In this document: piece by piece, positions 50,488 through 53,638 of the stretch
Numbering within the stretch: position 1 is the stretch's first letter
Layout of the letters: each line of letters starts with the position of its first letter
Virus record (IMG/VR): IMGVR_UViG_3300036861_000361
Coordinates: 1 to 63,549 of that record
DNA length: 63,549 nt
From: a virus
Taxonomy: Duplodnaviria > Caudoviricetes
Direction: 5' to 3' (one strand)
Program-made: the position numbers and the translations under genes
Notes under the pieces: model-generated
The model's input: only the letters and a program-made list of their open reading frames with translations
The model's database searches: none
What the model was told of the DNA's origin: nothing

Positions 50488-50865
50488 AATGAATCATTAC
50501 GATCACGGCGACGACCCCCGGTAGCCGGGAGTTGGGCCTTCGAGTCCTGGAAGTCGGGTTGCCTCACAGTCTACAATTTGCCAATTTTTGAAAATTTTAA
50601 CTTTTGGTGAAAACAAAAAGGACTACTGCGAGTGACCCCAGTTAGAGTAGACTGTGGCTCGCATGATTGAAGTCTACTCACTCGACACTGAAGTTTTAGT
50701 TGATGGTGAAATTCCTGCTGTAATTAGAGCCGTCACAATTTACTCCACAGACTGGGTGAAGTATCTCTGCGTCTGGTGGGACGAGCGCAATCGCAAGGAA
50801 TAATGGTTGGCACCAAACGAATTCACTGTTAAGGAACCACATAAATCGCAGGTCAAGTTTATCTA

Positions 50866-53265
50866 ATGTCAATCGAAATACAGGAACTGCTCCGGAGTGG
50901 AAAATTCGACGGTTGGGAGAAGTGGGCACCCGAGGCTCAGTTGCTGCTGCGTGATGAACTCAAGCGGGCAGTCGAGACACTGAATCTCAAGGTGCCGCAG
51001 ACCGATGACGAATTGAAACTGCTGGTGCGCGATACCTGCGGCGTGATACTGCCCGATACCCAAGTCTGCACCAACCACACCACACCCTTCCGCGCTTTCA
51101 GTGATGCATTCTTTGCCCGCAGCCCGGTAACAGTGTGGAAAGCTAGTCGCGGATTTGGCGGCAAGTCATTTCTACTCGCACTCCTGGGCCACGTCGAAGC
51201 CTTTACGCTGGGAGCAGAGGTAGCCATACTCGGTGGCAGTGGTGAGCAGTCGCTCGGTGTCATGCGCTACCTGCAGAAGTTCACTGGCGGCGAGCAGACC
51301 ATGACCCAGCGCCAATCACTGTACGGAAGCGGTGGCAAGATACGAGCGCAGATGGCCTCATCCACCTCAGTGCGTGGCCCACACCCACAGCGACTGCGCC
51401 TTGACGAAGTTGATGAGATGGAATTGGAGATACTCGACGCCGCGATGGGCCAACCAATCAGCACCGCGAAGATTGCCAAGCAGACTGTGATGAGTTCAAC
51501 CCACCACTACCCGGACGCCACCTTCAGCGAGATACTCAAGCGTGCCGATGATAACCAGTGGCCGGTGATGGAGTGGTGTGTGGACGGAGACTCTGATATA
51601 CTGACTCCTAATGGACAAGTAAAAATGAAAGACCTGTCCATAGGAGACTCAATTTATGCGTTCAGAGACGGACAGCTTATCAGAACTCAAATCATCAACG
51701 CTTGGCAGTCAGGACTCAGACCCACACTCAGAATTGAAACTGATGCGGGCGTCCTTAGATGCACCGCCGAACATCGCGTTCTTACGGTCACGGGCTGGAA
51801 AGAAGCAGGCTCACTCACAGAAGGTGAAATTGTGCGTGCTGTGTGGCAAACGAAAAGCCCGTCGCTACAAAGACAAAACTTGCAGGAAGTGTCACTGCGC
51901 CAACAAGTGTTTGGATTGCGGAACCGTCATTACGGAAGAAGCGAAGCGGTGCTGTGCTTGTCAAGGCAAGATTCACGCGGAGCTGGTGAGGGCGCGGGCC
52001 GTGAAGTCAATATGTCCGTCCTGCAAAGGCCGGAAGCGAACCGCATCGCGGGTTTGTCTCATTTGCTTTCGCAAAGAACTTACCAAGCGGAACATTCGAG
52101 AAGCGGGAACAATGGTACTAGCACGGCAGCGGATTTCACACTCAGGAACAAGCCGCAAGCGCCGCAGTTCAGGCGAGATGGCAGTAAAGGAATTGTTCTC
52201 GCGTTTATCCGTTCGCTATTTGGAGGAACAGCTTTTCGACCGTTACGTGGTAGATTTTGTTTTCCCCGAATTCAATTTGGCCGTGGAGGTCAGTGGCAGA
52301 TATTGGCACACGAAGCCAGAACAGGTGAAGCGAGACCGCTTGAAGAAGAAAGCGGTGGAAGCGATGGGTTTAACACTTCTAGTGCTGTGGACAGATCAAC
52401 CCCATCTGTGGACTTTGCAGTTGTTCGACGCATTGAGCGTAACGCTACCATCCCTGTCTATGACATAACAGTTGCAGAAGGCTCATCCTTCATTGCCAAC
52501 GGTATAGTCGTTCACAACTGCTATCAGGAATCCTCGGCCCATCCCGACGGCTGGCTGGACGTGAACGAAATTCTCTCGAAGCAGAAGGAAGTTACCGCTG
52601 CCATGTGGGCCGCTGAGTACGACCTGCAGGAACCATCGCCCGAAGACCGCGCCATACTCACTGAGAAAGTAGATGCCTGCTTCCGCAAGAACTTAATCGA
52701 ATGGGGTCGGGATGAAGAACACGAGTGGAAGGGCCAACTCGGTGAGCGCATCGAAATAGAACCTCCCACACCTGAAGCCAAGTATGCCACCGGCTGCGAC
52801 TGGGCCAAGAAGAAAGACTTCACCATCATCGACACATTGCGCATCGACTGCCAGCCATTTCGTCGCGTTGCCTGGCAGCGCACCGGGCGACTGCCGTGGC
52901 CCATGATGATTGCACGGTTCGAGCAGCAGGTGAAACGCTATCCCGGTCGCTCCTGCCATGATGCTACTGGTCTTGGCGACGTAGTTGAAGATTACCAGGG
53001 AGCCAACGCCGAACCCGTGGTGCTGGTAGGGCAAACTCGCAGCGACGTTTTCACTAAATATATTGCGGCCATCGAAAACGGTGCTATCATCAGCCCGAAG
53101 ATTCGTCACTGCGAGAACGAACACCGCTACTGCACCAATGACGACCTTCGCGGCACCGGCCACCCGCCGGATTCGTTCATCGCTGGCGCAATGGCTTACC
53201 GCGCCGCCATGAAACGAGAGCCAGTCGAAGACGAGACCTACAGCTTCGGTTTTGTAGACTACTGA
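50866..53265 (+). CDS. Terminase large subunit containing an intein
   Basis: SRGFGGKS Walker A, LDEVDE Walker B, GCDWA/DATGLG/D nuclease motifs. Confidence 0.9.
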   Translation: MSIEIQELLRSGKFDGWEKWAPEAQLLLRDELKRAVETLNLKVPQTDDELKLLVRDTCGVILPDTQVCTNHTTPFRAFSDAFFARSPVTVWKASRGFGGKSFLLALLGHVEAFTLGAEVAILGGSGEQSLGVMRYLQKFTGGEQTMTQRQSLYGSGGKIRAQMASSTSVRGPHPQRLRLDEVDEMELEILDAAMGQPISTAKIAKQTVMSSTHHYPDATFSEILKRADDNQWPVMEWCVDGDSDILTPNGQVKMKDLSIGDSIYAFRDGQLIRTQIINAWQSGLRPTLRIETDAGVLRCTAEHRVLTVTGWKEAGSLTEGEIVRAVWQTKSPSLQRQNLQEVSLRQQVFGLRNRHYGRSEAVLCLSRQDSRGAGEGAGREVNMSVLQRPEANRIAGLSHLLSQRTYQAEHSRSGNNGTSTAADFTLRNKPQAPQFRRDGSKGIVLAFIRSLFGGTAFRPLRGRFCFPRIQFGRGGQWQILAHEARTGEARPLEEESGGSDGFNTSSAVDRSTPSVDFAVVRRIERNATIPVYDITVAEGSSFIANGIVVHNCYQESSAHPDGWLDVNEILSKQKEVTAAMWAAEYDLQEPSPEDRAILTEKVDACFRKNLIEWGRDEEHEWKGQLGERIEIEPPTPEAKYATGCDWAKKKDFTIIDTLRIDCQPFRRVAWQRTGRLPWPMMIARFEQQVKRYPGRSCHDATGLGDVVEDYQGANAEPVVLVGQTRSDVFTKYIAAIENGAIISPKIRHCENEHRYCTNDDLRGTGHPPDSFIAGAMAYRAAMKREPVEDETYSFGFVDY
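51577..52518 (+). mobile_element. Intein (314 aa, residues 238-551 of TerL)
   Basis: CVDGD block A, CTAEHRVL block B, VYDITV block F, VVHN|C block G. Confidence 0.92.
51824..52468 (+). CDS. Zn-finger plus DUF559/Vsr-like endonuclease nested out-of-frame in the intein
   Basis: Repeated CxxC pairs, then YVVDF..LAVEVSGRYWH..DRLK....G..LLVLW; start uncertain. Confidence 0.8.
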   Translation: MKLCVLCGKRKARRYKDKTCRKCHCANKCLDCGTVITEEAKRCCACQGKIHAELVRARAVKSICPSCKGRKRTASRVCLICFRKELTKRNIREAGTMVLARQRISHSGTSRKRRSSGEMAVKELFSRLSVRYLEEQLFDRYVVDFVFPEFNLAVEVSGRYWHTKPEQVKRDRLKKKAVEAMGLTLLVLWTDQPHLWTLQLFDALSVTLPSLSMT

Positions 53266-53275
53266 GGAGTGAGCC

Positions 53276-53638
53276 ATGAGTGATTACGATGTCACGACGG
53301 CGGATGGTACACGCATCAACGCGAAGGTGACGATTCCCAGTGGCCCCGGTGCAAGCTACTTGGTCTATACTGCATTGCTTACTCAAATAGGAACAGGCGC
53401 ACCAGTAGCTACGGTCATTGAGAACACAATAGGTGTGATAACGTTTTCTTACGATGACGTAGGTCAATACCACGCGCTTTCAGCGGGATTGTTCACAGAA
53501 GGAAAGACCGTTGTATTTTTAACTGACGTGCAAAGTTACGGAGCAAGACCTGTGAGCGCGAGTAGTATTTTACTTTTGGCAGGAACGGGTGATGATCAGT
53601 TTCTTAATGCATCCATTGAAATCCGCGTCTATCCATAG
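53276..53638 (+). CDS. Hypothetical (probable virion) protein, paralog A
   Basis: VYTALLTQ..AP..ENT.G..IEIRVYP. Confidence 0.7.
   Translation: MSDYDVTTADGTRINAKVTIPSGPGASYLVYTALLTQIGTGAPVATVIENTIGVITFSYDDVGQYHALSAGLFTEGKTVVFLTDVQSYGARPVSASSILLLAGTGDDQFLNASIEIRVYP

What the first reader, a model, noticed from the sequence alone, without database searches (positions are those of the whole stretch)
51577..52518. Terminase intein with its endonuclease encoded in an overlapping +1 frame
The intein frame is stop-free, but between blocks B and F it reads as non-domain filler. The +1 frame over the same ~640 nt encodes tandem CxxC fingers and a DUF559/Vsr-like nuclease, stopping at 52468 inside block F. 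Both frames staying open implies true dual coding: a separately translated homing nuclease hidden in a contiguous intein, unlike canonical in-frame intein nucleases or split inteins with free-standing nucleases.
Basis: partly seen in the sequence, partly recalled or inferred. Interest (0 to 1): 0.85.

Follow-up and report, generated by a model that had tools for sequence, protein, structure and literature searches.

The report
Terminase intein with overlapping-frame homing nuclease
A phage DNA-packaging gene carries a self-splicing protein insert whose middle encodes, in a second overlapping reading frame, a DNA-cutting enzyme that probably spreads the insert; related phages share this layout, but similar two-frame inserts were described recently.

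Summary
ORF 50866-53265 is a terminase large subunit (TerL) interrupted by a 314-residue class-1 intein (51577-52518). An intein-less allele, P0004, reads MEW|CYQESS straight across the junction.

Intein residues 94-272 are frame-0 read-through: stop-free, poorly conserved and predicted disordered. The +1 ORF 51656-52468 encodes three C4 zinc ribbons and an EDxHD/Vsr-like nuclease. Its closest structure is I-Bth0305I.

It is not an assembly error. Ten other lineages with DNA in hand show the same layout, always nuclease = host frame +1. They lie at two TerL sites and in a Mu-F-like head gene.

Synonymous-codon shuffles give P<=1e-4 for the open host frame in each of the ten lineages tested. 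Substitutions peak at frame-0 third positions in the splicing lobes and at +1 third positions in the middle. The nine TerL-nested nucleases form one clade.

Translation, cleavage and splicing are inferred, not shown.

Inteins with overlapping-frame nucleases are already in print: cyanobacterial dnaX, and a 2025 actinophage survey. A sense-strand +1 Vsr-like version turned up in none of my searches. I rate this a new member of a known kind, of moderate interest.

The parts
50866..53265 (+). TerL precursor ORF (799 aa): N-extein, intein, C-extein
   Evidence: The intein-less homologue P0004 (474 aa) matches phrog_9 'terminase large subunit' at E 9.9e-8 and PDB TerL nuclease domains at about 2e-3. 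Walker A (GFGGKS) and Walker B (RLRLDEVDE) are read directly from the translation. Pfam did not recognise the exteins.
50866..51576 (+). N-extein (237 aa), ends ...PVMEW
   Evidence: BLASTP to P0004 gives 74% identity, and P0004 continues ...MEW-CYQESS.
51577..52518 (+). Class-1 intein, 314 residues, frame 0
   Evidence: Pfam Intein_splicing 49.4 bits against a cut-off of 35.8. Cys1, block B T63..H66, D296, H313 and N314 are invariant in 8 of 8 aligned inteins. It is followed by Cys+1 at 52519.
51577..51855 (+). HINT N-lobe (intein residues 1-93)
   Evidence: AF2 pLDDT 90-94. Substitutions peak at frame-0 third positions: 216/155/312.
51856..52392 (+). Frame-0 read-through 'filler' (intein residues 94-272)
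   Evidence: pLDDT about 30, one segment below 50. Frame-0 identity among 4 lineages is 0.24, against 0.46 in the +1 frame. Only G180, L243 and A244 are invariant in frame 0. L243-A244 is the shadow of W-H in the +1 motif YWH, read from the codons.
52393..52518 (+). HINT C-lobe (blocks F and G, ...GIVVHN)
   Evidence: pLDDT 87-94. Substitutions 88/71/116 by frame-0 position.
52519..53265 (+). C-extein (248 aa plus stop), starts CYQESS
   Evidence: 82% identity to P0004 residues 235-474.
51656..52468 (+). Nested +1 ORF, 270 aa: leader, three zinc ribbons, EDxHD/Vsr-like nuclease
   Evidence: A profile of the nested nucleases hits PDB 3r3p_A (I-Bth0305I) at E 5.6e-10 and Vsr 1cw0 at 1.8e-4. In the AF2 model residues 58-267 have pLDDT of about 74-97. 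Foldseek finds 3r3p_A at E 3.1e-5, TM 0.75 on the target.
51642..51646 (+). AGGAG, Shine-Dalgarno-like, 9 nt before ATG 51656
   Evidence: Read. (A)GGAG also lies 9 nt before the ATG at the same offset (+79) in L082 and L083. L084 has GGAGG 6 nt before its ATG, L164 has GGAGG at 6 nt and L167 has GGAG at 7 nt. It overlaps the conserved frame-0 'GD..YA', so it is not independent of intein constraint.
51656..51820 (+). Leader of the nested protein (residues 1-55), overprinted on the HINT N-lobe
   Evidence: pLDDT below 50 for residues 1-54 except residue 38. Substitutions peak at +1 position 2, which is frame-0 position 3: 94/208/136. Here frame 0 is the constrained frame.
51833..52066 (+). Three C4 zinc ribbons (Cys 60/63/76/79, 85/88/99/102, 120/123/134/137)
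   Evidence: Cysteine columns are invariant or nearly so in 21 aligned nucleases. Pfam DZR is weak in the window (E 0.052). In relative L166, DZR_2 scores 25.9 bits (E 8.8e-6), just under its 27-bit cut-off.
52169..52423 (+). Nuclease core; D200 (52253-52255), E211 (52286-52288), H218 (52307-52309), D227 (52334-52336)
   Evidence: These four residues are invariant in 21 of 21 sequences. The HMMER alignment pairs D200 and H218 with the D of DFVV and the last H of FWH in Vsr, E211 with a Vsr Phe, and D227 with the D of ERDR. These match the Vsr residues Asp51, His69, Phe62 and Asp97 named in PMC2677866.

Best explanation
This is a composite mobile element in the phage's terminase large-subunit gene.

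1. Ribosomes read frame 0 through the whole insert and make a 799-residue precursor.
2. The two HINT lobes (intein residues 1-93 and 273-314) are joined by a disordered linker of about 180 residues. The linker is simply the nuclease gene read in the wrong frame.
3. The lobes splice the intein out and join ...MEW to CYQE..., giving a working 485-residue terminase.
4. From the same mRNA, a second initiation at ATG 51656 (AGGAG 9 nt upstream) reads the +1 frame. It makes a 270-residue protein with a disordered leader, three zinc ribbons for DNA binding, and an EDxHD/Vsr-like nuclease domain.
5. That nuclease most likely cuts intein-less terminase alleles of co-infecting relatives near the insertion site. 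Repair then copies the whole element in (homing).

Each stretch of DNA encodes a folded domain in only one frame. In the other frame it only has to stay stop-free.

Shown: both frames, their conservation, the selection signatures and the predicted folds. Inferred: the start site, cleavage, homing and splicing.
For: Layout. Intein-less allele P0004 reads MEW|CYQESS across the junction.

Conservation. The nuclease lies in host frame +1 in L082 (= L002 = L003), L083, L084 (= L004) and L110. The same holds in 10 of the 80 IMG/VR loci that hold relatives of the nuclease: L162-L168, L170, L228 and L229. Their host ORFs run 560-1048 codons. In none of the 80 was the other sense frame open for more than 87 codons. 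Hosts are TerL at the window's site (L164), TerL at the Walker-B site (L084, L166, L167, L168, L170), and a Mu-F-like head protein (L228/L229).

Host frame open by selection. Observed stops were 0, against shuffled means of 5.8-17.9. P was at most 1e-4 in 10 of 10 lineages tested, and the control frame behaved as expected.

Which frame is constrained. In the middle, the +1 frame has 0.46 amino-acid identity and substitutions of 484/410/714 by codon position, while frame 0 has 0.24 identity. In the HINT lobes substitutions peak at frame-0 position 3.

Folds. In the frame-0 model, residues 94-272 have pLDDT of about 30 and the lobes 87-94. In the +1 model, residues 58-267 have pLDDT of about 74-97 and the leader is below 50.

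Nuclease identity. The closest structure is 3r3p, I-Bth0305I. D200, E211, H218 and D227 are invariant in 21 of 21 sequences.

Start site. An ATG lies within 15 codons of the last upstream +1 stop in 9 of 10 lineages. A Shine-Dalgarno-like site lies 6-9 nt upstream in 6 of 10.

Ancestry. The nine TerL-nested nucleases form one clade (SH-aLRT 98), and the insertion site changes once within it.
Against: There is no expression, peptide, cleavage or splicing data, and no RNA run holds the stretch. The AGGAG and ATG overlap the conserved frame-0 residues G-D..Y-A, so their conservation could be a by-product of intein constraint. Four lineages lack a clear Shine-Dalgarno site, and L228 has no early ATG. 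In L083 the +1 frame carries one internal stop, so the nuclease can decay while the intein persists. The window's copy could therefore be recently dead without showing it. Whether a 180-residue disordered linker allows efficient splicing is assumed from general knowledge of mini-inteins with linkers. The tree rests on 88 columns and a quick search.
Confidence: 0.8

Rival explanations
1. The nuclease is made by +1 ribosomal frameshifting from the TerL/intein frame, not by internal initiation. The product would be an N-extein-HINT-N-nuclease fusion that ends at 52468.
For: The +1 frame opens 12 nt before ATG 51656, so a shift anywhere in the leader would stay open. L228 has no early ATG, and four lineages have no clear Shine-Dalgarno site. 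In some canonical intein nucleases the HINT domain helps to bind DNA (recalled, not tested).
Against: An ATG follows the last upstream +1 stop within 15 codons in 9 of 10 lineages, and is the very first codon after it in L164 and L166. I did not look for a conserved slippery site. The start offset differs between lineages (+79, +121, +178), yet each has its own ATG and, in 6 of them, a Shine-Dalgarno-like site.
Confidence: 0.07
2. In this window the +1 ORF is a recently inactivated relic. Only frame 0 matters now, and the element is inherited vertically as a long mini-intein.
For: L083 shows exactly this decay: one stop in the +1 frame while frame 0 stays open. Homing elements are expected to decay once fixed, a point made in the preprint section read.
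Against: The window's +1 ORF has no stops over 274 codons. It keeps all four catalytic residues and all 12 zinc cysteines. Across lineages the +1 frame is the conserved one. Close intein-less alleles with 74-82% extein identity exist, so targets for homing are available.
Confidence: 0.08
3. Assembly or sequencing artefact: two compensating indels displaced an ordinary in-frame intein nuclease.
For: The window is a metagenome assembly at modest depth (word depth 13). In-frame versions of this nuclease in inteins do exist: P0162, P0210 and P0212 and L184.
Against: Ten other lineages from other assemblies share the same frame offset, with nuclease identity of roughly 27-50%. The host frame is stop-free far beyond chance in each of the ten tested. 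An artefact would not purge stops from about 180 off-frame codons. Logan's separate assembly of run X1 is identical, with 0 differences and 0 gaps, though that run may be the window's source.
Confidence: 0.01

Closest known systems
Non-canonical actinobacteriophage inteins with out-of-frame or antisense homing nucleases (Gosselin, Arsenault and Gogarten, bioRxiv 10.1101/2025.01.02.630785; I read the abstract, sections 8 and 15, and passages)
   Same: Contiguous inteins, many in TerL. The nuclease is encoded in the usual nuclease-insertion region but not in the intein frame. One type is VSR-like, with an HHpred match to 3R3P. The authors propose that a free-standing nuclease gene invaded an intein.
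   Different: Their VSR-like nucleases are on the antisense strand. Their only sense-strand out-of-frame type is endonuclease VII-like, in 'frame 3'. Here the VSR-like nuclease is on the sense strand in frame +1, has three zinc ribbons, and comes from uncultured phages. I could not see their supplementary tables, which might list a case like this one.
Cyanobacterial dnaX intein with an out-of-frame LAGLIDADG nuclease (Phillips, DeSimone and Gogarten, bioRxiv 10.64898/2026.09.14.751524; I read the abstract and section 17; Gorbalenya 1998 is known to me only as cited there)
   Same: A same-strand overlapping ORF inside a contiguous intein. Selection is stronger on the nuclease frame and relaxed on the intein frame across the overlap.
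   Different: The nuclease family is LAGLIDADG, the host is a cellular dnaX gene, and the frame is called '+2ORF'. Here the nuclease is EDxHD/Vsr-like and sits in phage structural and packaging genes.
Fractured genes: split inteins with a free-standing Vsr-like nuclease gene between the halves (Dassa et al. 2009, PMC2677866; passages read)
   Same: The same nuclease family in the same position between the N and C splicing parts. The nuclease 3' end overlaps the C-intein coding region, by 6-69 bp there and by about 75 nt of the HINT C-lobe here. Terminase is among their hosts. I found such loci myself: L210, L202 and L174.
   Different: In fractured genes the host frame is broken into separate ORFs and the intein splices in trans. 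Here frame 0 is continuous. Their nucleases, as seen in L210, L202 and L174, lack the triple zinc ribbon.
I-Bth0305I and the EDxHD homing endonuclease family (Taylor et al. 2011, PMC3239194; abstract and passages read)
   Same: A Vsr-like catalytic fold with the conserved E, D, H and D residues. The architecture has an N-terminal DNA-binding region and a C-terminal nuclease. It is the best structural and profile match.
   Different: I-Bth0305I sits in a group I intron of recA and binds DNA through NUMOD/HTH motifs. Here the gene is overprinted on an intein and carries zinc ribbons instead.
Canonical inteins with an in-frame DUF559/Vsr-like nuclease (P0162, P0210, P0212, L184)
   Same: Intein_splicing plus DUF559. 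P0212 is in a Mu-F-like host, as L228 is.
   Different: Everything is in one reading frame. By profile score they are more distant (E 4e-22 to 2e-15) than the proteins I read as nested (E 1e-96 to 1e-40).
ShiLan insertion: hidden out-of-frame HNH nuclease in a phage methylase (Arsenault et al. 2025, PMC11855218; abstract only)
   Same: A nuclease ORF overprinted on a stop-free in-frame insert in a phage gene.
   Different: That insert has no splicing domains. Here the insert is a complete intein.

Membership tests
Class-1 intein (HINT) | Cys/Ser at position 1, block B TxxH, terminal HN, nucleophile at +1 | tested here: met
   C1, T63, H66, H313 and N314 are invariant in 8 of 8 sequences. Cys+1 lies at 52519.
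Class-1 intein (HINT) | Profile match above the curated cut-off | tested here: met
   PF14890 scores 49.4 bits against a cut-off of 35.8.
Class-1 intein (HINT) | Exact in-frame insertion relative to an intein-less allele | tested here: met
   P0004 reads ...LMEW-CYQESSAHPDGW....
Class-1 intein (HINT) | Protein splicing activity | not testable with these tools
   It needs expression of the 799-residue precursor.
EDxHD / Vsr-like homing endonucleases | Vsr-like catalytic fold | tested here: met
   Profile against 3r3p_A, E 5.6e-10. Foldseek 3r3p_A at E 3.1e-5, target TM 0.75; Vsr 1cw0 and 1vsr at about 2e-3.
EDxHD / Vsr-like homing endonucleases | Conserved catalytic E, D, H and D | tested here: met
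   D200, E211, H218 and D227 are invariant in 21 of 21 sequences. They align to the Vsr positions named in PMC2677866.
EDxHD / Vsr-like homing endonucleases | N-terminal NUMOD/HTH DNA-binding region | tested here: not met
   The N-terminal region holds three C4 zinc ribbons instead. I did not run a NUMOD-specific search.
EDxHD / Vsr-like homing endonucleases | Site-specific cleavage of the element-free allele | not testable with these tools
   It needs a cleavage assay.
Pfam DUF559 | Score above the gathering cut-off | tested here: met
   24.9 bits against 20.6. Relatives L166 and L170 score 48.5 and 36.4 bits.
Inteins with an overlapping-frame homing nuclease | Contiguous splicing frame, with the nuclease ORF in another frame of the same DNA | tested here: met
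Inteins with an overlapping-frame homing nuclease | Purifying selection on the nuclease frame within the overlap | tested here: met
   (codon-phase counts and identity of 0.46 against 0.24). (stop avoidance).
Fractured gene / split intein with a free-standing nuclease gene | Host frame interrupted, with separate N- and C-intein ORFs | tested here: not met
   Frame 0 is open from 50845 to 53265.

The most novel reading that the evidence does not exclude
The zinc-ribbon EDxHD nucleases overprinted in frame +1 form a single, old clade of obligately dual-coded intein elements. The clade has diversified across two TerL sites and a head-morphogenesis gene while keeping the overlap. If so, overprinting is an evolutionarily stable design, not a brief intermediate. 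It would also be the contiguous counterpart of Dassa-type fractured genes: one stop in the filler plus a start before block F would yield a natural split intein with a free-standing nuclease gene.
Probability: 0.35. Interest if true: 0.65.

Novelty: new member of a known kind. Interest (0 to 1): 0.5.

Why it matters
The finding extends overlapping-frame nucleases in inteins beyond actinophages and cyanobacterial dnaX. They also occur as a widespread family in uncultured phages.

Gene callers mostly miss this family. Only 2 called proteins turned up in the word-indexed search of 5.8 billion clusters, and the top hits of the exhaustive profile search look like nested ORFs called on short contigs.

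It gives a clean natural example of how two proteins share DNA: each frame is folded only where the other is disordered.

It puts contiguous, in-frame and fractured arrangements of one nuclease family side by side. That bears on how inteins acquire nucleases and how split inteins arise.

Practically, intein surveys and phage annotation should scan alternative frames of 'filler' inteins. The long disordered linker is also a natural test of how much insert a HINT domain tolerates.

Tried and rejected
Single-protein scans of viral contigs with the nested ORF and with TerL found nothing. Alignment-based scans then worked.

It gave no nested case and no host clue.

Internal promoter: 0 sigma-70-like sites in 50500-53500, against 1.7 expected. 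I assume the nested ORF shares the TerL transcript.

A hairpin that occludes the Shine-Dalgarno site: in the window AGGAG pairs in a stem (z -2.2; 3 of 200 shuffles fold as well). L082, L083 and L084 give z of -1.1, +0.5 and -1.0. It is not conserved, so I dropped it as a general feature.

Sequencing runs: one DNA holder was listed (X1), kept as contigs and possibly the window's own source. No RNA holder was listed. The laid contig is identical, which is not independent support.

Mini-inteins L106, L109, L121, L127, L144, L148 and L149 (142 residues) resemble the window's HINT lobes. They sit in ribonucleotide-reductase-like genes (TNP|C...HN|CGE), not in TerL. They are not nuclease-less forms of this element.

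Pfam did not recognise the TerL exteins or P0004. TerL identity rests on PHROGs, weak PDB hits and motifs.

Literature searches. None returned a sense-strand +1 Vsr-like or EDxHD nuclease nested in a contiguous intein. 'intein' + 'Vsr' + 'overlapping reading frame' returned 0 papers. Gorbalenya 1998 was not in the searchable library and is cited second-hand. Supplements were closed, so the preprint's supplementary tables were not seen.

In one search the row L229 (near-identical to L228 and nested) was mislabelled 'other'. redid the test with it included.

For the tree, 55 of 81 loci gave a nuclease core of at least 60 profile positions, and 47 distinct rows were used. The rest were dropped as too short or duplicate.

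I did not use complex prediction, the protein-atlas search or the listing of cluster members.
Full report
**What is there.** The window is an IMG/VR virus record of 63.5 kb, estimated 95% complete. ORF 50866-53265 (+) encodes 799 residues. Residues 238-551 (51577-52518) are an intein. It starts MEW|CVDGDS, has block B CTAEH, and ends GIVVHN|CYQE. Pfam Intein_splicing scores 49.4 bits against a cut-off of 35.8.

The host is a terminase large subunit. It carries Walker A GFGGKS and Walker B RLRLDEVDE. The intein-less homologue P0004 (474 aa; 74% and 82% identical to the two exteins) matches phrog_9 'terminase large subunit' (E 9.9e-8) and, weakly, PDB TerL nuclease domains. P0004 reads ...MEW-CYQESS... 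across the junction, which fixes the intein boundaries. Of the 120 best TerL homologues listed, most are intein-less proteins of about 440-510 residues. Twelve carry an intein domain.

**The two frames.** Between the splicing lobes, frame 0 reads as an Arg/Gly/Ser-rich sequence with no domain match. The +1 frame is open from 51644 to 52468, with ATG at 51656. Its 270-residue product has three C4 zinc ribbons (Cys 60-137) and a nuclease core that passes the DUF559 cut-off (24.9 against 20.6 bits). The third sense frame has 18 stops.

**Not chance and not an artefact.** Instead I scanned IMG/VR and JGI/ENA metagenomes with an alignment of eight inteins (A1) and later with 21 nucleases (A3).

- tblastn showed the splicing lobes in frame f and the nuclease in f+1 in L082 (identical to L002 and L003), L083, L084 (= L004) and the fragment L110.
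- Among the 80 IMG/VR loci that hold relatives of the nuclease, 10 have a long host ORF (560-1048 codons) open across the whole nuclease in the frame one base upstream.
- None of the 80 has the other sense frame open for more than 87 codons.

Counting duplicates once, that makes 11 lineages including the window.

Synonymous-codon shuffles that keep the +1 protein and its codon usage gave 5.8-17.9 expected host-frame stops, against 0 observed. P was at most 1e-4 in each of the 10 lineages tested. The control frame matched expectation each time. Logan's separate assembly of the only holder run is identical, though that run may be the window's source.

**Which frame is under selection where.** I compared four lineages at the window's site: WIN, L082, L083 and L164.

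| Region | Frame aligned | Substitutions by codon position 1/2/3 | Amino-acid identity |
|---|---|---|---|
| HINT N-lobe | frame 0 | 216/155/312 | 0.48 |
| HINT C-lobe | frame 0 | 88/71/116 | 0.53 |
| Middle | +1 | 484/410/714 | 0.46 |
| Middle | frame 0 | 684/485/441 | 0.24 |
| Nested-ORF leader (over the N-lobe) | +1 | 94/208/136 | 0.28 |

In the two HINT lobes substitutions peak at frame-0 third positions. In the middle they peak at +1 third positions. In the leader they peak at +1 position 2, which is frame-0 position 3.

The fold predictions mirror this. In the frame-0 intein, residues 1-93 and 273-314 have pLDDT 87-94 and residues 94-272 about 30. In the +1 protein, residues 1-54 are almost all below 50 and residues 58-267 are about 74-97. 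Each stretch of DNA therefore encodes a folded domain in one frame only.

**What the nested protein is.** A profile of the nested nucleases hits I-Bth0305I (3r3p) at E 5.6e-10 and Vsr at about 2e-4. Foldseek gives 3r3p first (E 3.1e-5, target TM 0.75), then Vsr. D200, E211, H218 and D227 are invariant in 21 of 21 sequences. They align to the Vsr active-site positions and to the family-specific Glu described by Dassa et al..

It is therefore an EDxHD/Vsr-like homing nuclease (Taylor et al. 2011), but with zinc ribbons in place of NUMOD/HTH motifs. In phage genomes, free-standing nuclease genes show weak similarity of 22-32%. One example is ChubbyThor gp188, a separate gene next to the capsid gene.

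**How it is probably expressed.**

- WIN, L082 and L083 have an ATG at intein offset +79, with (A)GGAG 9 nt upstream.
- L084 has its ATG at +178, with GGAGG at 6 nt.
- In L164 the ATG is the first codon after the upstream stop, with GGAGG at 6 nt. L167 has GGAG at 7 nt.
- L166, L168 and L170 have an early ATG but no clear Shine-Dalgarno site. L228 has only a GTG.

This favours internal initiation on the TerL mRNA, and no internal promoter-like site was found. It remains an inference. In the window the ATG and AGGAG coincide with the conserved frame-0 residues G-D..Y-A.

**Family picture.**

- The nested nuclease occurs at the window's TerL site (W|C) in L082, L083 and L164.
- It occurs at the Walker-B site of TerL in L084, L166, L167, L168 and L170. 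L084's TerL has the window's site unoccupied.
- It occurs in a Mu-F-like head protein in L228/L229.
- In a tree of 47 nuclease cores, the nine TerL-nested ones form one clade (SH-aLRT 98). The insertion site changes once within it.
- Forcing the Mu-F case into the clade is not rejected (p-AU 0.60). The tree is short (88 columns) and was a quick search.

The exhaustive profile search found 9209 relatives at E<=1e-3 and 25 at E<=1e-30. Several top hits begin MPTK... and end ...SMT or ...SMI. By my reading of the codons, these are the +1 shadows of the intein's YAYKDG and VYDI/L. They look like nested ORFs called on short contigs, but their DNA was not seen.

The same nuclease family also occurs in frame in inteins (P0162, P0210, P0212, L184). 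It occurs too in Dassa-type fractured genes (L210 DnaE-like, L202 IMPDH-like, L174). L083 carries one stop in the +1 frame while frame 0 stays open, which is a decaying nuclease.

**Prior knowledge.** The idea is not new.

- The 2025 actinophage survey reports contiguous inteins, many in TerL, with antisense LAGLIDADG, antisense VSR-like, and sense-strand 'frame 3' endonuclease VII-like nucleases.
- A 2026 preprint analyses the out-of-frame LAGLIDADG ORF of the cyanobacterial dnaX intein. It credits Gorbalenya 1998 for the first proposal.
- A hidden HNH nuclease in a methylase insert is also described.

My searches found no report of a sense-strand +1 Vsr-like or EDxHD nuclease inside a contiguous intein. 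The preprint's supplements were not visible.

**Verdict.** I file it as a new member of a known, recently described kind. Its added value is a large conserved family, a constant +1 offset, quantitative evidence of dual constraint, and all three arrangements of one nuclease family side by side. Translation, splicing and cleavage remain to be shown.

Noticed in passing
L064:2501-3316 (intein) and L064:2709-3293 (+1 ORF): A 272-residue intein in a PolA-type DNA polymerase (RYSS|C...VVHN|SNPNLQNIPR) has an Arg/Gly-rich frame-0 middle. Its +1 ORF of 194 residues matches Pfam HNH_3 (E 1.6e-11, 44.1 bits against a cut-off of 24.8). This is a second overprinted nuclease family, also in frame +1.
   Followed up: partly
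L083:1010-1978: The nested nuclease frame has a single internal stop (..ALARQ*IALSG..) while the TerL/intein frame stays open. The rest of the nuclease, including the catalytic motifs, is intact. It looks like an early stage of nuclease decay.
   Followed up: partly
L210:1045-5333; L202:1745-3461; L174:2096-3932: These are fractured genes of the Dassa type. An N-intein ORF, a Vsr-like nuclease ORF and a C-intein ORF lie in three different frames with short overlaps. The hosts are a DnaE-like, an IMPDH-like and a third gene.
   Followed up: partly
P0162 (1274 aa): The Pfam matches suggest two inteins in one protein, each with an in-frame Vsr/DUF559 nuclease: Vsr at 442-497, DUF559 at 963-1041, and HINT matches at about 175 and 681-1090.
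   Followed up: no
P0111, P0113, P0117 (TerL homologues): Three further TerL inteins have Arg/Gly/Ala-rich, filler-like middles. P0117's sits at the Walker-B site. They may hide overlapping ORFs, but their DNA could not be fetched.
   Followed up: no
window 51606-51646: A stem that pairs the AGGAG before the nested ATG with upstream sequence (MFE -18 kcal/mol for the 80-nt stretch folded, z -2.2). It is not conserved in three relatives.
   Followed up: yes
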